A program made the position numbers and the translations under genes. Below the pieces are notes generated by a model that was not told the origin of the DNA, searched no databases, and worked only from the letters and a program-made list of their open reading frames with translations. Source: Candidatus Dormiibacterota bacterium (lineage in GTDB: Bacteria; Chloroflexota; Dormibacteria; Aeolococcales; Aeolococcaceae). From it: a stretch of 64,000 nt of DNA. The DNA is taken from the NCBI GenBank assembly GCA_035995545.1, contig DASYKI010000016.1:820335-884334 (forward strand), given 5' to 3'. Shown here in pieces: positions 10,859 to 64,000 of this stretch. Position 1 is the stretch's first letter; each line of letters starts with the position of its first letter.

Positions 10859-13366
10859 GTGACCAACCACCGAGCCACCGTCGCGCCTCTCCGCGCGCTG
10901 CTCTGCGCCGCACTCGCCGTCGCCGCGTCGGCCGGTGCCGCACTCAGCTTCGTCCGCGCCGCCGGCGCCGAGGTGGCCGGCACCCCGATGAACCTCCACG
11001 TTGACGCGCAGGAGTACGCGGCGACGGCTCCCGCCGACCCGTACCAGCACGACGCGGCGGCCATCCACGTCAGCGTCGCCGGCGGCCAGGACACCACGCG
11101 CAGCTACGTCCACGTCGACCTGGCCGGGCTGGTCGGCGGCGCCATGCCGACCTCGGTCCTGCTCAGCCTGACTCCCAACGGCGACGCCGCCGCCAACGCC
11201 AACGGCAGCGCGGCGACGCTGCAGGCGTGTCCGCTGCTGGGATCGCTGGAGCCGTTCAACCCGACCTCGCCGCCCGGTTTCGACTGCACCAGCGCGGCGC
11301 ACGGCACGCCGGCCGCCGCGGGCACGTGGACCTTCGAGCTGGCCCCGCTGATGCAGCGCTGGCTGCTCGAAACCAACCGCGGCGTCGCCATCGTCGCCGA
11401 CCACAGCGCCGCGACCGCGACCTGGTTCACCGCCTTCGATAGGAGCAAGACACGGGCGATCGCGGTCGTGCCGGTGAGCGACTCGCCACCGCTGTCGACG
11501 TACACCTTCCCCGCGGTGCCGGCAGCGCCGCCACCCGCACCGCCGCCCGCGGCCGTGGCGCCGCCGTTCCTGTCAGTACCGGCCACAACTCCGGGGCCAC
11601 CGAGCGCGGCAACACCGGGGCCGTCGCCGTCGCCGAGCAGCGCCGCGAGTGCAGCCGGCGGAGCCGGCACCGGCACCCCACCCGCGCCGGGTGCCGCCAC
11701 CATGCACGTGGAACCCGCCAGCACCTGGCTGTGGTGGCTGCTCGGCTCCGTCCTGCTCGGCGCCGCAGCCGCGCTGGCCATGGTGGTGCAGCGCGCGGTG
11801 CGAGATGCCCACCGTCTTCCCGACGCCGCCGCGCTGCGCGCCGCCCTGCGCCATCCCGACCTGCGCCTCTCTCGCGCCGGCGCGCTGGTCATGATCGGCG
11901 CCGTCGTCGCCGTCGGCTTCTCCAACCGCCTCGCCGTCCAGGGCAGTCCCGCCGCAGCGGGCAGCTCCGGACCGCAGGCGGCTGCGGGCGCAACCCCCAG
12001 CAGCGGCGCAGCCGGCGGCGGCAACACCGGCGCCACGGCGCCACCACCCGGCGCAGCGAGCGGGCCCGCCGCCGCACAGAGCGCAGCCGCCGCCGCCCAG
12101 AGCGCCGCCGCCGCCGCAGCAGCAGCGGGAGCGCAGGCACCCACCGGCGACATCCCCGGCGTGACCGCCACCACCATCCGCATCGGCTTCATGACCGAGA
12201 CCAACCGCTCGGCGGGCAACGGCGCCATCGGAGCCAAGAACATCGGCGACTACGGCAACGTGCCCGCCCAGGCGCAGGCGATGGCCGACTGGCTCAACCG
12301 CAACGGGGGCATCGCCGGACGCCGGGTGATCCCGGTGATGGAGAACTTCGACGCCTCCAACACCGACCCCAACCAGGAGGCGGCGCTCTGCACCAAGTTC
12401 ACCCAGGACGACCACGTCTTCTCCGTCGTCGACATCGAGTCCAACCTCGACTACGGAGCGTGCTACGCGCACGCGCACACACTCGTGGTCGAGGCGCAGA
12501 CCTACCAGGGCGACACGCAATTGATGGACCACCTCGCCCCGTACGTGTTCGACTCGACCACGCCACCCAACGAGCGCGCCTTCCAGGTGCACGCCGACGG
12601 CCTTGCCCAGCAGGGATTCTTCGGCAAGACCGACAAGGTGGGCATCATCGTCGCCGACGATCCGCTGATCCGCCGCGACTTCACCGAGGTGGCCATGCCG
12701 CGCCTCGCCCGCGCCGGGGTGACCAATCCCGACCTCTACTACGTCAACCCCTACTCCGACACCGGCACCAAGGCGCGCGACCTGGGCACCGCGGTGACCC
12801 GCATGCACAGCAACGGCGACACCGAGGTCATGCTCTTCGGCGACTCCGGGGGCGGCGCCACCCTGATCACCATGGCCGCGGCCAAGGGCCAGGGCTGGTA
12901 CCCCAAGTGGGGTCTCGACACCAGCAGCGCACCCGGCGCGCTGGAGACCATCAGCCAGATCTCCGACGAGATGAAGACCGCGGTGGTGGTCGGCTACAAC
13001 CGCACCTACGACGCGGAGAGCGACAGGGGCGGCGAGCCGGTGCCGGCCTCGCCGCTGGAAAAGCTCTGCGTCGACACCTACAGGGCGGCGGGGATCAGCT
13101 TCGCCACCCGGCTCAACTCGGTGGTCGCCTACCGCTACTGCGACTACGCCTTCCTGCTGCACCAGGCCTCGCAGGGGCTCGGCGCCAACCTGAGCATCCA
13201 GACCCTGATGGCGCAGGCGTGGCACCTGGGCAGCTCGTACATGTCGGTCAACGCCTACCACGCCACCTTCAACGGCCGGCCCTACGGCACCGACGGCTAC
13301 CGCATGCTCGGCTACGACACCGGGTGCTCATGCTTCAAGTACAGCAGCCCGACCTACACGTTCTGA
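10859..13366 (+). CDS. Composite envelope protein: signal peptide + unknown beta-rich domain + Pro-rich linker + 2 TM helices + Ala/Gly linker + Liv-type (type I PBP) substrate-binding domain
   Basis: GTG 10859 is preceded by GAGGAGG (6-nt spacer) and lies 11 nt after the upstream stop. The signal peptide is LLCAALAVAASAGAALS. The TM helices are WLWWLLGSVLLGAAAALAMVV and ALVMIGAVVAVGF. The SBP-like part starts GVTATTIRIGF. Only the last 835 codons of track ORF 7889..13366 are real. Confidence 0.8.
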   Translation: MTNHRATVAPLRALLCAALAVAASAGAALSFVRAAGAEVAGTPMNLHVDAQEYAATAPADPYQHDAAAIHVSVAGGQDTTRSYVHVDLAGLVGGAMPTSVLLSLTPNGDAAANANGSAATLQACPLLGSLEPFNPTSPPGFDCTSAAHGTPAAAGTWTFELAPLMQRWLLETNRGVAIVADHSAATATWFTAFDRSKTRAIAVVPVSDSPPLSTYTFPAVPAAPPPAPPPAAVAPPFLSVPATTPGPPSAATPGPSPSPSSAASAAGGAGTGTPPAPGAATMHVEPASTWLWWLLGSVLLGAAAALAMVVQRAVRDAHRLPDAAALRAALRHPDLRLSRAGALVMIGAVVAVGFSNRLAVQGSPAAAGSSGPQAAAGATPSSGAAGGGNTGATAPPPGAASGPAAAQSAAAAAQSAAAAAAAAGAQAPTGDIPGVTATTIRIGFMTETNRSAGNGAIGAKNIGDYGNVPAQAQAMADWLNRNGGIAGRRVIPVMENFDASNTDPNQEAALCTKFTQDDHVFSVVDIESNLDYGACYAHAHTLVVEAQTYQGDTQLMDHLAPYVFDSTTPPNERAFQVHADGLAQQGFFGKTDKVGIIVADDPLIRRDFTEVAMPRLARAGVTNPDLYYVNPYSDTGTKARDLGTAVTRMHSNGDTEVMLFGDSGGGATLITMAAAKGQGWYPKWGLDTSSAPGALETISQISDEMKTAVVVGYNRTYDAESDRGGEPVPASPLEKLCVDTYRAAGISFATRLNSVVAYRYCDYAFLLHQASQGLGANLSIQTLMAQAWHLGSSYMSVNAYHATFNGRPYGTDGYRMLGYDTGCSCFKYSSPTYTF

Positions 13367-56304: not shown

Positions 56305-57078
56305 ATGGACGCAGTCGACACCGGGGTGCGCGTCGAGCGCCGCGGCGGCGTGCTCTGGCTGCGCCTGCACCGCCCCGAGTCGCGCAACGCGCTGACCCTG
56401 GGGGACATGCACGCGCTGGCCACGGCGCTGCGCGACGTGGACGCCGGCGAGGACCGCTGCGCGGTGATCACCGGGCACGAGCCGGGCACCTTCTGCTCGG
56501 GGTTCCGGCTCGACGAGGGCGCCGCCGGCGACATGGCCTCGGGGCGCGCCAAGCAGGCCGCCGACGATCTCTTCGCCCTCCTGCCCGTCGCCCCCATCCC
56601 GGTGATCGCGGTCGTCGACGGCCCCGCACGGGGCGCCGGCTGCGAGCTCGCCCTGCGCTGCGACCTGCGCATCGCCTCCGACCGGGCCAGCTTTGGCATT
56701 CCCGCCGCCCGCCTGGGCGTGCCCTACACACCGCCGAGCATCGCCTTCCTGGTGCGCCGCTACGGCCAGGGACCGGTGGCGCAGCTCTTCTACGCCGCCT
56801 CGATCCTCGACGGCGACGCGGCGCTCCGCAGCGGGCTGGTGCACGAGCTGGTCGGCGCTCGCAAGCTGCCGTCCCGTGTCGCCGAGCTGACCGAGCGCAT
56901 CGCCGCGTCGGCGCCACTGGTGCAGCGCTTCTTCAAGGCGGCCGTCGCCGCCGCCGAGGGAGTGGGGGAGGAGGCCGCCATCGACGCCGCCCTCGCCCGG
57001 GTCACCGCCAGCGAGGACTTCGCCGAGACGCTGCGCGCCATCGGCGAGCGCCGCGAGCCGCGCTTCACCGGGGGCTAG
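56305..57078 (+). CDS. Enoyl-CoA hydratase/isomerase (crotonase) family protein
   Basis: ATG 56305 has GGAGGA upstream. The sequence reads LHRPESRNALT..FCSGFRL..VIAVVDGPARGAGCELALRCDLRIA. The 3' end overlaps the GT39 gene by 14 nt (convergent). Confidence 0.88.
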   Translation: MDAVDTGVRVERRGGVLWLRLHRPESRNALTLGDMHALATALRDVDAGEDRCAVITGHEPGTFCSGFRLDEGAAGDMASGRAKQAADDLFALLPVAPIPVIAVVDGPARGAGCELALRCDLRIASDRASFGIPAARLGVPYTPPSIAFLVRRYGQGPVAQLFYAASILDGDAALRSGLVHELVGARKLPSRVAELTERIAASAPLVQRFFKAAVAAAEGVGEEAAIDAALARVTASEDFAETLRAIGERREPRFTGG

Positions 57079-59128
57079 TCAGGTCGTAGAGCGTCACCCC
57101 ACCCACGGTGGTGCTGCTGAACGTCGCCTGCACCCAGGCCGTGATCGCGCTCGACACACTCGACGTCGCTGCTCCTGGACCGCCGGGGCCTCCCCGCCCG
57201 CCGGCGATGAACCAGTGGATGCTGCCCTGGGCGACGAGCTGCTGGAACTGCGCCAGCGTCGGCGCCGGATCGGTGCCGTTGAACCCGCCGATGGCCAGCA
57301 CGGGATCACCGGTGGCCAGCTGGTACCCCGCCGCCGAGTTCGCGCCCACAGTGGCCGCAACCCACGTGTAGCGGCTCGCGCCCGCGCCCAGCGTCTGGGT
57401 GAGCTGCGCACTCGGCGTGCTCCCGTTGAGCAATCCGCCCGCCCCGCCTCGGGGACCGCCGCCCGGCAGCGCGCCGCCGCCGAACCTCGGAATCCCGCCG
57501 TTGAATCCCGGGGCGCCGCCGGGCAGCCCACCGGGGCCGCCGCCGCCCGCAAACGGTGTCGCGGCGGCGGGGCCGGCACTCGGAATCGCCCCCGCGTGCG
57601 CCGTGACCACCGTGTCGAGCGTGTACGCCGCCGGCCCCGCCAGCGCGGCCAGCACCGCGACGGCGGCGACGGCGTTCACCGCGTACCGGGGGCGAATCCA
57701 CGGCAGCGCCACCAGCCCCACCGCACCCACGATGCCGCCGCCGAGCACGAGCACCTGCAACCAAGGCGTCCACCCCGCGCTGCGCTCGAGCAACACCCAG
57801 GCCCACACAGCGGTGGCCAGCAGCACACCGCCCAGCAGCAATCGCGCCCACAGTGCCTCCCGCCGCGCCCACAGCATCGCGGCGCCGATGCCAGCGATCC
57901 CGCCGACGGCCGGCGCCAGCGCCACCGTGTAGTAGGGATGAATGATCCCCGCCGCATAGCTGAACACCACCCCGGTGACGATCAGCCACAAGCCCCACAG
58001 CAGCAGCGCCGCCCGCGTCCGATCGGTCCGCGGTGAACCCCGCCGCATCCACAATCCGACCGCGAGCAACGCCAGCGCCGCGGGCAGCAGCCACGAGATC
58101 TGGCCACCCATGTCCGCAAGGAAGAGCCGGTCCCACCCCGTCGGCCCCCAGCGCGACCCCGCCGCGGCGGCGCCGAAGCCACCGACGCTGCCGGTCTCAT
58201 TGCCACTCAGCCGCCCAAGCCCGTTGTATCCGAAGATCAGGTTGAGCAGGCTGTTGTCCTGCGACCCGCCGATGTAGGGTCGTTGCGACGCCGGCACCAG
58301 CTGCACGGCCGCAACCCACCAGCCCGATGCCATCAGCAGCGCGCCCGTCGCGGCCAGCAGGTGCAGCAGGCGGCGCCGCAACGGCACCGGTGCCGCCAGC
58401 AGGTACACCCCCGCGAGTGCCGGCAGCACCAGGAACGCCTGCAGCATCTTGGTGATGAACCCGGTGCCCACCAGCGCCGCCGCGAACATCAGCCACCGCA
58501 TGCTGCCCCGCTCCAGGGCACGCACCGTCGCGTAGGCGGCGGCAACGAGCAGCAGCACCAGCAGTGCATCGGGATTGTTGAAGCGGAACATCAGCGCCGC
58601 CACCGGAGTCAGCGCCAGCACCGCGCCCGCGGTCAGTGCGGCACCCGGCGAGAACCACCGCCGCACCGTTGCATACAGCAGCGCCACCGCCGCCACGCCC
58701 TCCAGCGCCTGCGGCACCAGGATGCTCCACGCGTTGACGCCGAAGATGCGCGCCGAGATGTCCATCACCCACAGCGCCGCGGGTGGCTTGTCCACGGTGA
58801 TGAAGCTGGCCGCGTCGAAGGAGCCGAAGAAGAACGCCTTCCAGCTGCTGCTGCCCGCCTGCACCGCGGCGGAGTAGAACGAGTTCGCCCACCCCGACGC
58901 ACCCAGGTCCCACAGGTAGAGCAGGGCCGTGACGGCGAGCAGCGCGATCAGGCTGGGCCGCACCCATGCCGGGTCGGCGACCCGGCCGCGCAGCAGGCCG
59001 CGCAGCCGCCCTCCGAAGCGAGAGCGCACCGGAGCGGTGTGGCGCTGGACCTCGACCGGCGCCTCCGGAGTCTGCAGGGTTGCGGTCATGAACGGCAGTT
59101 TCGCCGAGCCCGCTGGGACCCGTTGCAA
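57065..59128 (-). CDS. Glycosyltransferase family 39 (ArnT/PMT-like GT-C) membrane protein
   Basis: Multiple TM helices are present. N-terminal blocks are YLWDLGASGWANSFYSAAVQAG..FFGSFDAASFITVDKPP. There is a Gly-rich segment and a soluble C-terminal domain. The start is 59128 or ATG 59089. Confidence 0.88.
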   Translation of the reverse strand: MQRVPAGSAKLPFMTATLQTPEAPVEVQRHTAPVRSRFGGRLRGLLRGRVADPAWVRPSLIALLAVTALLYLWDLGASGWANSFYSAAVQAGSSSWKAFFFGSFDAASFITVDKPPAALWVMDISARIFGVNAWSILVPQALEGVAAVALLYATVRRWFSPGAALTAGAVLALTPVAALMFRFNNPDALLVLLLVAAAYATVRALERGSMRWLMFAAALVGTGFITKMLQAFLVLPALAGVYLLAAPVPLRRRLLHLLAATGALLMASGWWVAAVQLVPASQRPYIGGSQDNSLLNLIFGYNGLGRLSGNETGSVGGFGAAAAGSRWGPTGWDRLFLADMGGQISWLLPAALALLAVGLWMRRGSPRTDRTRAALLLWGLWLIVTGVVFSYAAGIIHPYYTVALAPAVGGIAGIGAAMLWARREALWARLLLGGVLLATAVWAWVLLERSAGWTPWLQVLVLGGGIVGAVGLVALPWIRPRYAVNAVAAVAVLAALAGPAAYTLDTVVTAHAGAIPSAGPAAATPFAGGGGPGGLPGGAPGFNGGIPRFGGGALPGGGPRGGAGGLLNGSTPSAQLTQTLGAGASRYTWVAATVGANSAAGYQLATGDPVLAIGGFNGTDPAPTLAQFQQLVAQGSIHWFIAGGRGGPGGPGAATSSVSSAITAWVQATFSSTTVGGVTLYDLTSPR

Positions 59129-59181
59129 TGCCCGCTGGGAGGTGGCTGGGAAACCCCGCGCCGAGCCGGCCGGGCCGTCGC

Positions 59182-59934
59182 TCAGCCGTGCCGCAGGTGC
59201 AGGTCGAACTCCATGGTCGCCTGGTCGGTGACGCTGACGAACCCGCCCACGTTGGGCACCCGCATGCCGAAGTCACCCCACGGGAAGGTGATCGATCCGA
59301 CCACCTCGACCTCCGTGGCGGACAGGTGCGCCTGGGCGGGGATGGTCTCCAGCTTGGTGACGCCGTGGATGGTGAGATTGCCGCTCAGGTCCACCTTCAC
59401 CGTCTGGCCGCCCGCGGCGGTTGCCGCCAGTGTCGCCGGCTGGGTGAGCACGAAGCCGGCGGTGGGAAACCGGCTCGACTCCAGGCCGATCGAGTGGATG
59501 CGGTCATCGCGCATGGTGCGGTCGCTGCTCAGCGTCGAGACGTCGGCCTGGAACGACGCGGCGGTCACCGTCAGCGCGTCCGTCGTGCCGCCCAGGGTCG
59601 CCGAGCCGCTCACCTTCGACGTGCGTCCCACGGCGTCGCTCGGCGCCGAGAGGAAGGCGAGCTGCTCGCGCACCCGGTAGCCCACGACCGATCCGCTGCT
59701 GGAACTCCACGTTCCGGGCAGCTGCGACGCATCGACCGGTGACGCCTGCGCGCTGCCGCTCGGCGTCGCGGTGCTGAGCGTCAGTGGCGGGGGCGACGAG
59801 GTGCCGAACACCACGAACCACAGGAAGGCGAATGCCGCCGCGCCCAGCAGCAGCACGGCAGCAACCGCGCTGAGGATCCAGCTGCGAAGCGTGTGGGGGA
59901 CCAGGCGTCGCAGCACGTGCATCAGGGCCAGCAT
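59182..59934 (-). CDS. YceI-family protein with an N-terminal membrane anchor
   Basis: There is a TM helix (ILSAVAAVLLLGAAAFAFLWFVVF). The YceI-like core is SGSVVGYRVREQ..VDLSGNLTIHGVTK. Confidence 0.85.
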   Translation of the reverse strand: MLALMHVLRRLVPHTLRSWILSAVAAVLLLGAAAFAFLWFVVFGTSSPPPLTLSTATPSGSAQASPVDASQLPGTWSSSSGSVVGYRVREQLAFLSAPSDAVGRTSKVSGSATLGGTTDALTVTAASFQADVSTLSSDRTMRDDRIHSIGLESSRFPTAGFVLTQPATLAATAAGGQTVKVDLSGNLTIHGVTKLETIPAQAHLSATEVEVVGSITFPWGDFGMRVPNVGGFVSVTDQATMEFDLHLRHG

Positions 59935-59979
59935 CCTCGCGATTGCTGGGAATCTGCTGAGGGTTGGCTCAGAGCTAGC

Positions 59980-61182
59980 CTAGGCGCCGCGGTAGATGTG
60001 GGCGGTGTCCGACCAGTACAGGGCATGGTCGGGGCCCTGCTTGACGTCGAGCCTGCACGTCGAGGGACCGCCGGCCACCGAGCCGTGCGGGGTTCCCGCC
60101 GTGAAGATCTTCATGCCGGCCGTGAACGTGCAGAAGACGATGTGGCCCGCATACGCGCTCGGACCCGACGCGTCGACGAAGCTGACGCCGGTGGGGACAA
60201 CGGTGCCCGTCTCGCTGCTCCAGTCGGGCTCGGGCTGCCCGGCGGGACAGGATGCGGTGGCCAGCGGATGGCTGTAGCCATAGCAGTCGGGCCACTGGTA
60301 GCCGGTGCCACGCCGCACGGCGGCGTACAGCTCGTCGTAGCCGGTGGTCGGCGAGCCGGCGTCGCCGGATGGGCCGTTGCTGGTCACCGCCATCTGCCCC
60401 GTCGCCGAGAAGGCGATGCCGAAGGGGTTGCGAAACCCGTATGCCCACACGGGATTGGCGGCGCCGAAGGGGTTGTCGGTGGGGACGCTGCCGTCGGGCC
60501 TGTAGCGCAGGATCTTGCCGCGCACGTCGCCGGTGTCCTGGGCGAGCTGCGAGCTGTGCTCCTCGCCGAGGGTGACGTAGAGCATGCCGTCGCTGCCGAA
60601 GCCGAGCCGTCCACCCTTGTGGCAGCAGTCGTTTCCGGCGGGAAGGGTGACGATCACCTGCGCCTCCGAGCTGACCCCCTTGCAGTCGCGCCAGCGGATG
60701 ACGTGCTGCTGGGTGCGGTTGGTGTCGGAGTAGAAGGCGTAGACGTAGCGATCGGTGGCGAAGCCGGGGCCGATGGCAATGCCGAGCAGGCCGCGTTCGC
60801 TGTAGTTGCCGTTCGCCTCGGTGGTCACCGTGGCCACGCTGGCGAAGTCGTGCGCGCCGCCGTCCTGCCAGACCTTCACAGTTCCGGTCCGCTCTGTCCA
60901 GAACAGCCGGCCGTCGGGGGCGAAGGCGAGCGCCGTGGCGTAGCTGGCCGCAATGGTGCCCTGCGGTGGCGTCTGCGGCCCGACGGCGCAGGGCGACGCT
61001 GTGGTGGTGGCCGTGGCGCTCGCGGTCGGCGCCGTGGGTGTCGCGGTGGCCGGCGCTGTCGGCGTGCTGTGTGGAGTTGCCGTCGGCGCTGGCGACGGAG
61101 TGCCGCCGCAGGCGACGGCGACGGCCGCGAGGACGAGGGCACCGGCGAGCCGGGGGACACGATGCAAGGGGGGCCGGGTCAC
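59980..61182 (-). CDS. PQQ-dependent sugar (glucose/sorbosone) dehydrogenase-like beta-propeller lipoprotein
   Basis: The lipobox is LAAVAVAC-G, followed by a Thr/Pro/Ala-rich linker. Blocks are GLLGIAIGPGF, CCHKGGRLGFGSDGMLYVTLGE, GKILRYRPDGSVPTDNPF and YGFRNPFGIAF. Confidence 0.88.
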   Translation of the reverse strand: MTRPPLHRVPRLAGALVLAAVAVACGGTPSPAPTATPHSTPTAPATATPTAPTASATATTTASPCAVGPQTPPQGTIAASYATALAFAPDGRLFWTERTGTVKVWQDGGAHDFASVATVTTEANGNYSERGLLGIAIGPGFATDRYVYAFYSDTNRTQQHVIRWRDCKGVSSEAQVIVTLPAGNDCCHKGGRLGFGSDGMLYVTLGEEHSSQLAQDTGDVRGKILRYRPDGSVPTDNPFGAANPVWAYGFRNPFGIAFSATGQMAVTSNGPSGDAGSPTTGYDELYAAVRRGTGYQWPDCYGYSHPLATASCPAGQPEPDWSSETGTVVPTGVSFVDASGPSAYAGHIVFCTFTAGMKIFTAGTPHGSVAGGPSTCRLDVKQGPDHALYWSDTAHIYRGA

Positions 61183-61264
61183 GCCAGGCAGGGTAGCGTC
61201 GGTGCCCTCGCCTCCGTCGCGAACGTGCGGAGAGGCCGTCTCGGCTGCGCGGGCGGTGCGCGAC

Positions 61265-62098
61265 TCATGGCAACGCCGCCGCGTGGCGCGGCGCCCAGGC
61301 GAGACGCCAGATGCCGCGCAGGTCCTCGATGGCGGTGGGCAGGATGTCGACGCGCGAATCGGCGTCGTCCACCCAGTCCACCGCGACCTCGTGGACGCGC
61401 AGGCCGCTGCGCCGGGCCAGGGTGAGCAGCTCGGTGTCGAAGAACCAGGAGTTGTCGCGCACCTGGGGCAGCAGCACGCGGGCGGCCGGTGCCGTCACCG
61501 CCTTGAAGCCGCACTGCGCGTCGCGCACGCCGGTGCGCAGGATGCTGCGCACCAGCAGGTTGTAGCCGCGCGAGATCACCTCGCGGCGGGCGCCGCGGAC
61601 CACGCGCGCGCCCGCCGCCAGGCGGCTGCCGATGGCGGCGTCGCTGTGTCCGGAGATGAGTGGCGCCACCAGGGGAAGCAGCGCGTCCAGCCCGGTCGAC
61701 AGGTCGACGTCCATGTAGGCGAGCACCGGCGAGTCGCTGAGCATCCAGGCGGTGCGCAGCGCCAGGCCGCGGCCCTTTTCCTCCACGCGCACGGCGCGGA
61801 CGTCGCACAGCTGCCGCCCCAGCCACCGAGCTGTCGCCCAGGTGCGGTCGGTGCTGGCGTTGTCGACGATGGTGATGCGCGCGCTGAAGGGGAAGCGATC
61901 GCCCAGGTAGGCGTGCAGGCGACGCACGCTGGGCTCGAGGTCGGCCTCCTCGTTGTGCACCGGGATGGCCACGTCCACCAGCGGCGGCACGGCGCGTCCG
62001 GTTGTGGCCATCTGCGGCACCAACGTGGCGTCCGGCAGCGTCCGCGCCGCTCGCGGCGGGGCTGCCACCAGGGGGCGGGGGAGGAGCTGCGGTGCCAT
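61265..62098 (-). CDS. GT2-family polyprenyl-phosphate glycosyltransferase (dolichyl-phosphate glucosyl/mannosyl-transferase-like)
   Basis: The sequence reads VDVAIPVHNEEADLE..ITIVDNASTDRT..YMDVDLST..DAQCGFKA. The start is 62098 or ATG 62011. Confidence 0.88.
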   Translation of the reverse strand: MAPQLLPRPLVAAPPRAARTLPDATLVPQMATTGRAVPPLVDVAIPVHNEEADLEPSVRRLHAYLGDRFPFSARITIVDNASTDRTWATARWLGRQLCDVRAVRVEEKGRGLALRTAWMLSDSPVLAYMDVDLSTGLDALLPLVAPLISGHSDAAIGSRLAAGARVVRGARREVISRGYNLLVRSILRTGVRDAQCGFKAVTAPAARVLLPQVRDNSWFFDTELLTLARRSGLRVHEVAVDWVDDADSRVDILPTAIEDLRGIWRLAWAPRHAAALP

Positions 62099-62198: not shown

Positions 62199-63086
62199 AT
62201 GACCGTGACCACCGCGATGCCCTTCGCCCGCCGCGCCTGGACCTGCTACGAGCCTGTCCACGCCCTGGTCTACTTCGCTCCGGAGAAGAAGGACGCCTAC
62301 GACGCCGCCGGACTGCGCGGCGGCTGGATGGGGTACTTCGCCTCCCGCTCGGCGGCGATGGGCGCGGTCGAGCCGGCGGTTGTGGCCGCAACCTTCCACA
62401 ACTTCCAGCCTGCCATGGTGGCGCGCGCCATCCCCGACGCCTGGACCTTCTCGACCCCCGCGCGCGTGCTGCAGGCGCGCCACGACGCCGTCGACCGCGC
62501 CCTGCGCCGCCTGTGGGGCGACGCCGTCGACGCCGGCTCGACCGCCGAGGCCGCCGACCTCGCCCTGCTCGTCGCGCGGGTGGCGAACGTCGCGGGCCGG
62601 CCCATCTTCGCGGCACACGCGGCGCTCCCGGTGCCGCCCGCGGATGCGCCGCACATGCGCCTCTGGCATGCCTGCACCCTGCTCCGCGAGCACCGCTTCG
62701 ACGGGCACGTCGCCACCCTGACCCGGCACGGCCTCGACGGCTGCGAGACCCTGGTCACCGCCGTCCTGGCCGGCGGCGGCGCGCCCGACGCCGAGGGCCT
62801 GCGCTCGGTCCGCGGCTGGACCGCCGAGGAATGGGCGGCCGCCGAGCGCCGCCTCCGCGACCGCGGCCTGGTCGGCGACGGCGGCCTGACCCCGCGCGGC
62901 GCCGCCCTCCGCGCCGAGGTGGAGGCGGAGACCGACGAGCTCGCCGCCGCGCCGTGGCAGGTCCTCTCCGCCGGCGAGCAGGAACGCCTGCTGGCCGTGC
63001 TGCGCCGCCTGGTGGACCTCCTGGACGCGCCCGACGGCGTGCCCTACCCCAACCCCGTCGGGGTTCCACGGCCGCTCACCGGGTGA
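62199..63086 (+). CDS. Conserved actinobacterial hypothetical protein (resembles the SCO6745 family)
   Basis: ATG 62199 has GGAGGA 7 nt upstream. The sequence reads ARRAWTCYEPVHALVYFAPEKKDAYDAAGLRGGWMGYFASRSAAMGAV. The family name is from memory and is not verified. Confidence 0.7.
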   Translation: MTVTTAMPFARRAWTCYEPVHALVYFAPEKKDAYDAAGLRGGWMGYFASRSAAMGAVEPAVVAATFHNFQPAMVARAIPDAWTFSTPARVLQARHDAVDRALRRLWGDAVDAGSTAEAADLALLVARVANVAGRPIFAAHAALPVPPADAPHMRLWHACTLLREHRFDGHVATLTRHGLDGCETLVTAVLAGGGAPDAEGLRSVRGWTAEEWAAAERRLRDRGLVGDGGLTPRGAALRAEVEAETDELAAAPWQVLSAGEQERLLAVLRRLVDLLDAPDGVPYPNPVGVPRPLTG

Positions 63087-63116
63087 GGCAGCCCTTTCGG
63101 GTATCCTCCTCCGCCT

Positions 63117-63190
63117 CCCAGGGTGGCCAAGTGGTCTAAGGCAACGGTCTGTAAAACCGTGTATCGGTGGTTCGAATCCACCCCCTGGGA
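63117..63190 (+). tRNA. tRNA with anticodon GTA (Tyr); 74 nt, short 5-nt variable loop, C1-G72, A73, no encoded CCA
   Basis: Hand fold: acceptor CCCAGGG/CCCTGGG; T8 G9; D stem GCC/GGC with an 11-nt loop containing GG; anticodon stem ACGGT/ACCGT with loop CTGTAAA; variable GTATC; T arm GGTGG-TTCGAAT-CCACC; discriminator A. A TATCCT -10-like hexamer lies at 63102-63107. Confidence 0.8.
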
Positions 63191-63229
63191 CGCTCTAAGC
63201 ACGAATCCATAGGCCGTCTCCGGCCTGCG

Positions 63230-63252
63230 GAGGCCACCTAGGGCCTCATTTT
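63230..63252 (+). terminator. Candidate intrinsic terminator downstream of the tRNA
   Basis: A 6-bp GC-rich stem GAGGCC (63230-35) / GGCCTC (63242-47) with a 6-nt loop is followed by ATTTT (63248-52). Confidence 0.4.
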
Positions 63253-63291
63253 GGCGGTTGATTACCCCAAAATTTACCCCACGTCTAGAGC

Positions 63292-63681
63292 TCAGTGGCG
63301 GAAGGCGGCGCACCCGGTATTGGTGGCTCCAGCCGGCCCGATCTGACCGGCGTACGCCTGGAGATTGACCACCACGCCGGACGCGAAAGTGGCCAGCAGA
63401 ATCGTGGCGTCATGGTCCCACTCGGCGTACGTGTAGCCGGGCGGCAGCCCTAGGTTCTTGAGGTAGGAGTCGGCCTGATGACCATTGGCCGAGCCCATGG
63501 CGCTCATAGCCGCCTGTTCCGACTCGCCGATGACGAGGGCGCACCAGCGGGCGTCAAGGCTGACCGCCGGGCTTGCGGACTGAGGCGGCGGGGTCGCGGT
63601 GGTACTAGTGCTGACAGCGGCTCCACTGCCGCAGGCAGCCAAAAGGAGTGCCGCAGCCGCGATGGCTGGCGTCGCCTTCAT
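63292..63681 (-). CDS. Small lipoprotein of unknown function
   Basis: ATG 63681 gives MKATPAIAAAALLLAAC-G (lipobox). This is the last 129 codons of track ORF 63292..63750. The ATG overlaps the stop of the upstream ORF (ATGA at 63678-63681). Confidence 0.65.
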   Translation of the reverse strand: MKATPAIAAAALLLAACGSGAAVSTSTTATPPPQSASPAVSLDARWCALVIGESEQAAMSAMGSANGHQADSYLKNLGLPPGYTYAEWDHDATILLATFASGVVVNLQAYAGQIGPAGATNTGCAAFRH

Positions 63682-63962
63682 GGCTTGCAATTCGGTTCGT
63701 AGGAGTAAGTGCAGGGCGGCAACGTCGGCGTCGGTTGCGGCGTGGAGCACGCAGAACAGCCAGGGTCGCAGCTCGGATTACCGCCCTGCCCGCAACGCCA
63801 ACCGGGGTCCGGGTACTGAGTCGGGGTCGGGGCGGGGGTCGAAGGTGCGGCGCTAGGCGCCGCGGGCGCGGTAGCCGCGCGGGGAGCGCTCGTACGCGCG
63901 GGCTGAGGTGCAACCGATGACGGCGCGGCCACTGAGGAGGGCGGAAGCGTGATCACGACCAC
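63678..63962 (-). CDS. Pro-rich protein with a Cys-rich C-terminus; the 5' end may lie beyond the window
   Basis: The track ORF is 63678..63962. The C-terminus reads WRCGQGGNPSCDPGCSACSTPQPTPTLPPCTYSYEPNCKP. It is translationally coupled to the lipoprotein gene. No signal peptide appears in the visible part. Confidence 0.35.
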   Translation of the reverse strand: MVVITLPPSSVAAPSSVAPQPARTSAPRAATAPAAPSAAPSTPAPTPTQYPDPGWRCGQGGNPSCDPGCSACSTPQPTPTLPPCTYSYEPNCKP

Positions 63963-64000
63963 AGGCGACGCTGTAACGGTCTCTACGGCCCCAGTCCCGG

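What the first reader, a model, noticed from the sequence alone, without database searches (positions are those of the whole stretch)
63117..63190. tRNA(GUA) with archaeal/eukaryotic-type tRNA-Tyr features (short variable loop, C1-G72) in a bacterial context
Seen in sequence: a clean 74-nt cloverleaf has anticodon loop CTGTAAA (GTA = Tyr), a variable region of only 5 nt (GTATC), first pair C1-G72 and discriminator A73. The 3-bp D stem with an 11-nt D loop (GCC-AAGTGGTCTAA-GGC) is the kind usually seen in long-arm tRNAs. No CCA is encoded. Established knowledge: bacterial tRNA-Tyr is class II (long variable arm) with G1-C72. Archaeal and eukaryotic cytosolic tRNA-Tyr is class I with C1-G72. That base pair is the key identity element that makes the two TyrRS/tRNA systems orthogonal. 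From memory, the D arm also resembles that of eukaryotic cytosolic tRNA-Tyr. All surrounding genes are clearly bacterial (ECF sigma, EAL, sortase-like signals). Inference: there are several possibilities. The lineage may have an unusual Tyr system. The tRNA may have been horizontally acquired or be charged by something other than a standard bacterial TyrRS. It may be used outside translation, or it may be a degenerate tRNA kept as an integration site.
Basis: partly seen in the sequence, partly recalled or inferred. Interest (0 to 1): 0.7.

Follow-up and report, generated by a model that had tools for sequence, protein, structure and literature searches.

The report
Archaeal-type tyrosine tRNA in a bacterium
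This is a genuine tyrosine tRNA from a soil bacterium of the Dormibacterota group, whose relatives pair it with a tyrosine-charging enzyme of archaeal rather than bacterial type, and here a prophage has inserted right at the end of the tRNA gene.

Summary
Window 63117-63190 (+) is a clean 74-nt class I tRNA(GUA) with C1-G72, A73, a 5-nt variable loop and no encoded CCA (ARAGORN; Rfam 66.8 bits).

It is typical of its lineage. The window is part of a 158.9-kb soil metagenome contig from a likely Dormibacterota bacterium. Near-identical tRNAs occur in dozens of Dormibacterota and many Chloroflexota MAGs. They often sit 14-220 nt upstream of a TyrRS gene of archaeal type (NF006330, 375-415 bits; best solved structure 2CYC, E 5e-123). 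That enzyme keeps the three residues that read C1-G72 in the M. jannaschii enzyme.

Two relatives (L160, L230) share the window's upstream genes at 78-85% nucleotide identity and have tRNA followed by tyrS. In the window the homology stops exactly after ...CCCTGGGAC. Lower-GC phage DNA follows (tail, capsid, portal and terminase genes). So a prophage sits at the 3' end of the tRNA and separates it from tyrS.

Archaeal Tyr identity in bacteria is published only for CPR bacteria (Mukai 2017), so this is a new member of a known kind.

Untested: whether this genome also keeps a bacterial Tyr system, where the far end of the prophage lies, and whether the tRNA is charged.

The parts
63117..63190 (+). 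tRNA-Tyr(GUA) gene, class I. It has C1-G72, A73, a 5-nt variable loop, and the anticodon at 63151-63153. No CCA is encoded.
   Evidence: ARAGORN; Rfam RF00005 at 66.8 bits; sequence. It is 73/74 identical to the tRNA of L230, differing only at position 9 (G instead of A). Covariation across 42 distinct relatives.
63191..63191 (+). Last base (C74) shared with the syntenic loci L230 and L160. Homology ends here, so this is the right-hand edge of the inferred attachment core.
   Evidence: Alignment A1. The window reads ...CCCTGGGAC|GCTCTAAGC. L230 and L160 read ...GGGAC|CAGACT..ATG(tyrS).
63192..64000 (.). End of a siphovirus-like prophage. It continues at least 19 kb past the window end. GC is about 0.60-0.65 over most of the prophage, against 0.71-0.80 for the host; within the window it rises from 0.62 just after the tRNA back to about 0.70 by 63550-64000.
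   Evidence: Source contig L111. It is 100% identical to IMG/VR provirus UViG_3300035673_000163 (L113). PHROGs hits: large terminase, portal, protease, major head protein, adaptor, tail tube, tape measure, Dit, minor tail proteins. GC profiles.
63292..63681 (-). 129-aa ORF with a lipoprotein-type signal (MKATPAIAAAALLLAACGS...). It is the outermost called gene of the provirus.
   Evidence: Gene call in L111 at 11094-11483; translation; phrog_8241, unknown function, E 3e-5. The IMG/VR provirus boundary starts at this gene.
62199..63086 (+). Host gene for a 295-aa HTH_67 (PF21863) protein that ends 30 nt before the tRNA. It is absent from the syntenic loci L160 and L230.
   Evidence: GC is about 0.79, like the host.
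57065..62011 (-). Host gene block: PMT_2 glycosyltransferase (57065-59089), YceI (59182-59934, specific to the window), GSDH (59980-61167) and GT2 (61265-62011). In relatives this block lies upstream of the tRNA-Tyr-tyrS pair.
   Evidence: Gene calls and Pfam in L111. blastn identity of 78-85% to L160 50-3475 and L230 1-2583.

Best explanation
The gene at 63117-63190 is the chromosomal, functional tRNA-Tyr of a bacterium most likely of the Dormibacterota lineage.

This lineage, and many Chloroflexota, use an archaeal-type Tyr system. The TyrRS is of the Pyrococcus/DPANN kind. At about 381 aa it aligns end to end with archaeal TyrRS, which leaves no room for the bacterial C-terminal arm-binding domain (no Pfam scan for S4 was run). 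It reads C1-G72, A73 and the GUA anticodon. Its tRNA has accordingly lost the long variable arm and flipped its first base pair, while keeping the D arm of a bacterial tRNA-Tyr. In relatives the tRNA and tyrS form a tRNA-tyrS pair.

The inferred working sequence is: the tRNA is transcribed, trimmed, given CCA by a CCA-adding enzyme (none is encoded here), charged with tyrosine by the archaeal-type TyrRS, and used to decode UAY.

At this locus the tRNA gene has also served as the attachment site of a temperate siphovirus-like phage. Integration rebuilt a full-length tRNA. It replaced everything after base 74, including the encoded CCA and the tyrS leader, with phage DNA. tyrS should therefore now lie at the far end of the prophage, behind a duplicated 3' piece of the tRNA.

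Shown here: the tRNA, its conservation, the adjacent archaeal-type tyrS in syntenic relatives, the break in synteny and the phage genes. Inferred: charging, sole use of this system, the location of tyrS and the far attachment site.
For: - tRNA. Covariation: 99.2% of pair cells are standard pairs, 13 of 20 pairs are compensatory, 0 of 500 shuffles reach this.
- Family: a class I, C1-G72, A73 tRNA(GUA) recurs in Dormibacterota and Chloroflexota genomes.
- Adjacent enzyme: an archaeal-type TyrRS lies downstream on the same strand in L149, L160, L182, L224 and L230. The same holds in at least 11 of the 80 loci, in 18 of 65 metagenome loci and in many loci.
- Enzyme type: NF006330 scores 375-415 bits (cut-off 220), while bacterial TIGR00234 falls below its cut-off. 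PDB 2CYC matches at E 5e-123 over the full length, against E 8e-9 for bacterial 1H3E.
- Readers of C1-G72: residues matching M. jannaschii R132, R174 and K175 are conserved (roles taken from PMC1934993). So are Y32, D158, H283, D286 and KMSKS (the roles of these are from my own knowledge).
- Synteny: 78-85% nucleotide identity with L160 and L230, ending exactly after C74.
- Prophage.
- Attachment-site use elsewhere: 12 loci hold only the 3' half of this tRNA, and one has a tyrosine integrase about 300 nt away.
- Enzyme phylogeny: the Dormibacterota and Chloroflexota TyrRS form one clade in a rough NJ tree.
Against: - The contig ends inside the prophage. No integrase, no duplicated attachment site and no tyrS could be seen for this genome.
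- No free-phage copy of the attachment sequence was found in IMG/VR.
- Whether a bacterial-type TyrRS or a class II tRNA-Tyr also exists in this genome, or anywhere in Dormibacterota, could not be tested. Only about 84 kb of the genome was readable.
- The upstream flank also differs from relatives right up to the tRNA 5' end, because of the HTH_67 gene, and no promoter-like site was detected.
- Several MAG taxon labels are inconsistent. L230 is labelled 'Ca. Angelobacter'.
- There is no aminoacylation or expression data.
Confidence: 0.82

Rival explanations
1. The tRNA and the archaeal-type TyrRS are real and work together, but they are a second, accessory Tyr system. They coexist with a canonical bacterial TyrRS and class II tRNA-Tyr elsewhere in the genome.
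For: The rest of this genome could not be inspected. Mukai 2017 reports such coexistence for the Trp system in CPR bacteria: TrpRS-A beside a bacterial TrpRS, and both G73 and A73 tRNA-Trp in one genome. Chloroflexota is mixed at the phylum level, since Anaerolinea MAGs have class II G1-C72 tRNA-Tyr.
Against: No E. coli-type TyrRS hit appeared in the roughly 2.1 Mb of fetched loci searched, nor in the 97 further loci. Every Dormibacterota hit to a D-arm pattern that also catches class II tRNA-Tyr was class I. The pair sits in a conserved chromosomal position. The TyrRS tree roughly follows the taxonomy, as expected for a vertically inherited essential gene.
Confidence: 0.12
2. The tRNA is carried by the prophage as a phage-encoded tRNA and is not a host gene.
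For: It lies directly next to phage DNA. Phages often carry odd tRNAs, and the nearest phage matches are tRNA-Asn and tRNA-Gln at 75-90% identity.
Against: The same tRNA (73/74 identical) sits after the same host genes in L230 and L160, which have no phage. No tRNA lies inside the 19.4 kb of provirus. The provirus boundary called by IMG/VR excludes it.
Confidence: 0.03
3. It is a hybrid or mistranslating tRNA. For example, ProRS might charge it through C1-G72 and A73, as with the Streptomyces tRNAProX family, or it might serve outside translation.
For: C1-G72 plus A73 is also the bacterial tRNA-Pro acceptor signature (PMC13433404; the link to ProRS charging and to the Streptomyces tRNAProX family is my own knowledge). 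The D arm is shared with phage tRNA-Cys, tRNA-Met and tRNA-Gln.
Against: A cognate enzyme that reads C1-G72 is encoded right next to the tRNA in relatives. The anticodon GUA is invariant across the family. The family is conserved across a phylum as a single-copy gene.
Confidence: 0.02
4. It is a pseudogene, a leftover attachment site or an assembly chimera joined at a tRNA.
For: No CCA is encoded, no promoter-like site was found, and the junction coincides with the tRNA end.
Against: The cloverleaf is perfect at 66.8 bits. An independent read-set assembly (Logan, L112) confirms the upstream gene joined to the first 57 nt of the tRNA. The phage side recurs 100% identical in an IMG/VR provirus from a second JGI metagenome, cut at the outermost phage gene, which implies flanking non-viral sequence in its parent contig. 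Other Dormibacterota tRNA-Tyr genes also lack an encoded CCA. A break exactly at the tRNA 3' end is what integrases produce.
Confidence: 0.01

Closest known systems
Archaeal-type tRNA-Tyr identity with archaeal/eukaryal-type TyrRS in CPR bacteria (Mukai, Reynolds, Crnkovic and Soll 2017, Life 7:8; PMC5370408)
   Same: A bacterium with a C1-G72 tRNA-Tyr and a TyrRS of archaeal type. The tRNA body appears to be of bacterial descent. tRNA-tyrS adjacency is also seen in the CPR loci fetched here (L126, L296, L310, L312).
   Different: The paper names only Parcubacteria, Microgenomates, Dojkabacteria and Katanobacteria, and it does not contain the word Chloroflexi. Many CPR tRNAs keep the long variable arm. 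Here the hosts are free-living, large-genome soil bacteria (Dormibacterota and Chloroflexota). The arm is gone throughout, and the TyrRS form a clade of their own.
Archaeal TyrRS-tRNA-Tyr pairs (M. jannaschii 1J1U; P. horikoshii 2CYC)
   Same: The identity set is C1-G72, A73 and GUA. The variable loop is short. The enzyme has no C-terminal arm-binding domain. R132, R174 and K175 are conserved.
   Different: The D arm is GCC-AAGYGGNCNAA-GGC, with a 3-bp stem as in bacterial tRNA-Tyr. It is not the 4-bp type seen in M. jannaschii. The enzyme is only 33-38% identical to the M. jannaschii enzyme.
Canonical bacterial class II tRNA-Tyr with bacterial TyrRS (T. thermophilus 1H3E; E. coli tyrS)
   Same: The same D-arm architecture, and in Anaerolineae nearly the same D and anticodon arms. 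The anticodon and A73 are also shared.
   Different: There is no long variable arm, and the first pair is C1-G72 instead of G1-C72. The partner enzyme scores below the cut-off for bacterial tyrS.
tRNA genes as attachment sites for temperate phages and islands (tyrosine-integrase elements; general knowledge)
   Same: The prophage abuts the tRNA 3' end, the tRNA is rebuilt intact, and half-tRNA remnants occur in relatives, one of them next to a PF00589 integrase.
   Different: The integrase and the second repeat for this prophage were not visible. The end next to the intact tRNA is the tail-gene end, not the integrase end.

Membership tests
tRNA (Rfam RF00005) | Cloverleaf and conserved core that score above the family gathering threshold | tested here: met
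   66.8 bits against a threshold of 29, with model positions 1-71 all matched. ARAGORN agrees.
Archaeal/eukaryal-type tRNA-Tyr identity set | C1-G72 first base pair and A73 discriminator | tested here: met
   Read directly from the sequence. Invariant in the 42 aligned relatives, although I selected those for CC...GA ends.
Archaeal/eukaryal-type tRNA-Tyr identity set | GUA anticodon and a short (class I) variable loop | tested here: met
   Anticodon at 63151-63153; variable loop GTATC.
Archaeal/eukaryal-type tRNA-Tyr identity set | Cognate archaeal-type TyrRS encoded in the same genome | tested here: inconclusive
   Not present in the window or in the 84 kb that could be read. Present directly downstream of the same tRNA in the syntenic loci L160 and L230.
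Archaeal/eukaryal-type tRNA-Tyr identity set | Tyrosylation that depends on C1-G72 | not testable with these tools
   Only indirect evidence: the residues that read C1-G72 are conserved in the neighbouring TyrRS of relatives.
Bacterial class II tRNA-Tyr | Long variable arm and G1-C72 | tested here: not met
   The variable loop is 5 nt and the first pair is C1-G72. Genuine class II examples with the same D arm are shown for contrast.
tRNA-gene attachment site occupied by a prophage | Phage genes directly flank the tRNA 3' end, and synteny with empty sites breaks there | tested here: met
tRNA-gene attachment site occupied by a prophage | Direct repeat of the tRNA 3' part at the other end, and an integrase gene | tested here: inconclusive
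   No repeat in the first 10 kb of the prophage (L111), the only stretch searched for one. No integrase in the 19.4 kb of prophage that could be read. The contig ends before the other end, and the metagenome scan did not recover it.
Phage-encoded tRNA | The gene lies within the phage genome and travels with it | tested here: not met
   The same tRNA sits in the same host context without any phage in L160 and L230.

The most novel reading that the evidence does not exclude
Dormibacterota as a whole, and large parts of Chloroflexota, may have completely replaced the bacterial tyrosine system. They would have taken one archaeal-derived TyrRS and remodelled their own class II tRNA-Tyr to fit it, by losing the variable arm and flipping the 1-72 pair. 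Other lineages would preserve natural intermediates: a C1-G72 tRNA-Tyr that still has the long arm (CPR and Omnitrophota), and both types side by side within Anaerolineae. This would be the first case of an identity-set swap fixed in a major free-living bacterial phylum. It would also supply ready-made tRNA-tyrS modules that may be orthogonal in ordinary bacteria.
Probability: 0.6. Interest if true: 0.72.

Novelty: new member of a known kind. Interest (0 to 1): 0.6.

Why it matters
The first base pair of tRNA-Tyr and its long arm are the textbook example of a tRNA identity rule that separates Bacteria from Archaea and Eukarya. That rule is the basis of the most widely used orthogonal pair in genetic-code expansion. 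A review from 2023 and a paper from 2026 still state the rule without exception. The only published bacterial exception I found concerns CPR bacteria.

A whole lineage of abundant, free-living soil bacteria on the archaeal rule would matter in three ways:
- It would show that identity sets can be exchanged in complex bacteria.
- Together with the mixed Anaerolineae and the C1-G72 long-arm forms, it would give a series of natural intermediates for studying how enzyme and tRNA co-adapt.
- It is a caution for annotation pipelines that judge tRNA isotype with domain-specific models.

The locus also shows a phage splitting a tRNA-synthetase pair, which may affect tyrS expression in lysogens.

Tried and rejected
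- First pattern, GGCCAAGTGGTCTAAGGC..CTGTAAA..GTTCGAATCC: 0 genome hits. It included the window-specific G9 and one particular T loop, so it was too strict.
- D-arm motif in IMG/VR: it hits phage tRNA-Cys, tRNA-Met, tRNA-Gln and others, so the motif alone says nothing about isotype.
- blastn against phage records: only generic tRNA similarity to tRNA-Asn and tRNA-Gln.
- Synteny through the upstream HTH_67 protein: its Dormibacterota homologues are not next to this tRNA. The gene later proved to be a window-specific insertion.
- The look-up of encoding contigs with two ORFs at their longest starts found nothing.
- Search for the attachment repeat inside L111: none.
- IMG/VR searches for the tRNA 3' half and for TyrRS: none.
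- The single metagenome scan with TyrRS gave many tRNA-tyrS loci but not the far end of this prophage.
- Promoter and terminator scan around the tRNA: nothing.
- The 10-kb interval between the intact tRNA and its remnant in OY969567.1 holds no integrase.
- I considered a ProRS-type or mistranslating tRNA (because of C1-G72 and A73) and a tRNA-Cys derivative (because of the D arm, and GCA to GUA is one change). I dropped both once the cognate archaeal-type TyrRS was found next to the tRNA.
- Literature: seven searches found no report of an archaeal Tyr system in Chloroflexota or Dormibacterota. Subscription-only papers are not covered.

Full report
**Observation.** The window holds one tRNA. 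ARAGORN places tRNA-Tyr(gta) at 63117-63191. Rfam RF00005 matches 63117-63190 over the whole model at 66.8 bits, E 2.3e-12. The sequence reads CCCAGGG-TG-GCC-AAGTGGTCTAA-GGC-A-ACGGT-CTGTAAA-ACCGT-GTATC-GGTGG-TTCGAAT-CCACC-CCCTGGG-A, followed by CGCT. This gives C1-G72, A73, a 5-nt variable loop, a 3-bp D stem with an 11-nt loop, and no encoded CCA.

**Where the window comes from.** The gene just upstream (62199-63086, HTH_67) was found exactly on JGI metagenome contig Ga0395523_00000111, which is 158,904 bp. Its closest relatives are Dormibacterota MAGs at about 60% protein identity. Host GC is 0.71-0.80.

**What lies downstream.** Beyond the tRNA the contig carries phage structural genes on the minus strand. 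An IMG/VR provirus, UViG_3300035673_000163, is 100% identical to this region and extends it. PHROGs identify the large terminase, portal, head protease, major head protein, adaptor, tail tube, tape measure, Dit, minor tail proteins and two DNA methyltransferases. Provirus GC is about 0.60-0.65. There is no tRNA inside it and no integrase in the 19.4 kb that could be read.

**The tRNA is typical of its lineage.** A strict pattern found nothing. It had included the window-specific G9.
- A looser pattern (CTGTAAA, 13 nt, GGTTCGAATCC) returned 112 loci. Most of them are Chloroflexota (Dehalococcoidia, Chloroflexia, Anaerolineae) and Dormibacterota MAGs. They carry near-identical class I tRNAs such as CCCAGGGTAGCCAAGTGGCCTAAGGCAACGGTCTGTAAAACCGTGTATCGGTGGTTCGAATCCACCCCCTGGGACCA.
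- The tRNA of L230 differs from the window's only at position 9.
- On 42 distinct family members, the cloverleaf is kept in 99.2% of pair cells, and 13 of 20 pairs show compensatory change. No shuffle or slid control comes close.
- C1-G72, C2-G71 and A73 never vary. I had selected for CC...GA ends, so this invariance is partly built in.

**The partner enzyme.** I ran tblastn with the M. jannaschii TyrRS (my recalled sequence, checked against PDB 1J1U) and with E. coli TyrS against all fetched loci.
- An archaeal-type TyrRS lies immediately downstream of the tRNA, on the same strand, in L149, L160, L182, L224, L230 and four other loci. There was no E. coli-type hit anywhere.
- These proteins are 368-382 aa. 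They score 375-415 bits on NF006330, the archaeal-type equivalog (cut-off 220). They fall below the cut-off of bacterial tyrS, TIGR00234.
- The best solved structure is P. horikoshii TyrRS 2CYC at E 5e-123 over the full length. Bacterial 1H3E reaches only E 8e-9.
- According to Tsunoda et al. 2007 (PMC1934993), M. jannaschii Arg174, Lys175 and Arg132 read C1-G72. All three are conserved in these proteins. So are Y32, D158, H283, D286 and KMSKS.

**Distribution.** A genome scan with the TyrRS alignment gave more than 587 relatives.
- The closest, at 59-70% identity, are about 20 Dormibacterota MAGs and several Chloroflexota MAGs. These include three MAGs whose class I tRNA lies on another contig.
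- Next come DPANN, Asgard and Thermococci archaea at 50-59%, and then CPR bacteria.
- Eleven of the Dormibacterota and Chloroflexota loci have the class I tRNA 34-220 nt upstream of tyrS. In metagenomes, 18 of 65 loci with upstream DNA do so.
- A rough NJ tree puts all Dormibacterota and Chloroflexota enzymes in one clade, apart from the archaeal and CPR clades. This suggests one old transfer followed by vertical descent.
Every Dormibacterota locus in which a tRNA was called was class I, including the complete chromosome OY970355.1.
- The same pattern also caught ordinary class II, G1-C72 tRNA-Tyr in Anaerolinea, Aquificota, Caldisericum and Bacteroidota.

So this D arm is simply the bacterial tRNA-Tyr D arm. 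Within Anaerolineae, the class I and class II tRNAs are almost identical up to the variable region. This points to remodelling of the resident tRNA, not import of an archaeal one.

**This locus.** blastn shows that window 57698-62026 (PMT_2, GSDH and GT2 genes) matches L160 and L230 at 78-85% nucleotide identity, in the same order, followed by the tRNA.
- In L160 and L230, the tyrS start codon lies 11-12 nt after the encoded CCA, or 14-15 nt after C74, the last base shared with the window.
- In the window, homology ends exactly after ...CCCTGGGAC (63191), and phage DNA follows.
- This is the footprint of site-specific integration into the 3' part of a tRNA gene. The tRNA is rebuilt but loses its encoded CCA and its downstream neighbour.
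- Twelve related loci contain only the 3' half of this tRNA, from the anticodon loop onward, next to foreign DNA. One has a PF00589 integrase about 300 nt away. The tRNA is therefore a habitual attachment site.
- The HTH_67 and YceI genes are extra in the window relative to L160 and L230.

**What could not be shown.**
- The contig ends inside the prophage. The integrase, the second repeat and tyrS of this genome were not seen, and neither IMG/VR nor the metagenome scan recovered them.
- I could not scan any whole genome. The absence of a bacterial Tyr system rests only on negative results in a few Mb of loci.
- No promoter-like site was found upstream.
- Charging and expression are untested.

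**Literature.** Mukai et al. 2017 (PMC5370408) described archaeal Tyr identity with archaeal-type TyrRS in CPR bacteria and called it the first such evidence. That paper does not mention Chloroflexi. Seven searches found no report for Chloroflexota or Dormibacterota. A 2026 paper still gives class II with G1-C72 as the bacterial rule, and a 2023 review of tRNA identity does not mention the CPR exception.

**Verdict.** The feature is real and functional-looking, and it is explained. It is one instance of an archaeal-type Tyr system that appears to be general in Dormibacterota and widespread in Chloroflexota, and here it doubles as a prophage attachment site. It is a new member of a known kind, of moderate to high interest.

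Noticed in passing
L145, L151, L162, L165, L166, L186, L191, L199, L202, L213, L223, L227 (coordinates): Twelve Chloroflexota loci hold only the 3' half of this tRNA-Tyr (CTGTAAAACCGT...GGGACCA). It is preceded by non-tRNA DNA, which often carries a shared motif such as CGGACGGC..GGAYGAACG..ACGAC. These look like leftover attachment sites of a recurring element family. L213 has a PF00589 integrase about 300 nt away. The 10-kb interval in OY969567.1 has none.
   Followed up: partly
window 62199-63086 and 59182-59934: The HTH_67 gene and the YceI gene are absent from the otherwise syntenic loci L160 and L230. The HTH_67 stop codon is only 30 nt from the tRNA 5' end, which leaves almost no room for a tRNA promoter.
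   Followed up: partly
window 63100-63108; L230 and L160 about 55 nt upstream of the tRNA: A shared GTATCCTCC motif lies upstream of the tRNA in the window and in both relatives, although the flanks are otherwise unrelated. It may be a -10-like promoter element.
   Followed up: no
L136 4670-4745 (Kitasatospora sp. NPDC049285): A 74-nt class I tRNA(GUA) with a G-start acceptor stem lies 13 nt after a tRNA-Ala(cgc). It is unrelated to the family studied here. It might belong with the hybrid, mistranslating tRNAs described from Streptomyces and Kitasatospora.
   Followed up: no
L168 5101-5177 (uncultured Eubacterium MAG): A tRNA-Tyr with the bacterial G1-C72 pair and the CCCGAGCGGCCAAAGGG D arm, but only a 5-nt variable region. 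It is a bacterial-identity tRNA-Tyr without the long arm.
   Followed up: no
L284, L285 (Omnitrophota), L290, L296, L310, L312, L314: A C1-G72 tRNA-Tyr that still has a long variable arm lies just upstream of an archaeal-type tyrS. This form, reported for CPR bacteria, also occurs in an Omnitrophota MAG.
   Followed up: partly
L399, L402, L440, L457, L479 compared with L124, L127, L129, L149, L189, L208, L218: Anaerolineae MAGs split into two groups: those with a class II G1-C72 tRNA-Tyr and those with a class I C1-G72 tRNA-Tyr. The D and anticodon arms are nearly identical between the groups, so both systems exist within one class.
   Followed up: partly
L113 3026-4203 (prophage, beyond the window end): Two adjacent DNA methyltransferase genes (phrog_359 and phrog_363) lie upstream of the terminase gene.
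   Followed up: no
L130 4890-7787 (Planctomycetota MAG): A dense array of 23 tRNA genes in 2.9 kb, ending with a class I tRNA(GUA). It may be a mobile or phage-derived tRNA array.
   Followed up: no
L230, L173, L243, L257 (SMAG_* MAGs): The record titles (Ca. Angelobacter, Acidiferrales, Saccharimonadales, Binatia) disagree with the content. The tRNAs of all four are the Dormibacterota type. The TyrRS of L230, L243 and L257 fall inside the Dormibacterota clade. L230 also shares synteny with the window. This suggests mislabelled or mis-binned contigs.
   Followed up: partly
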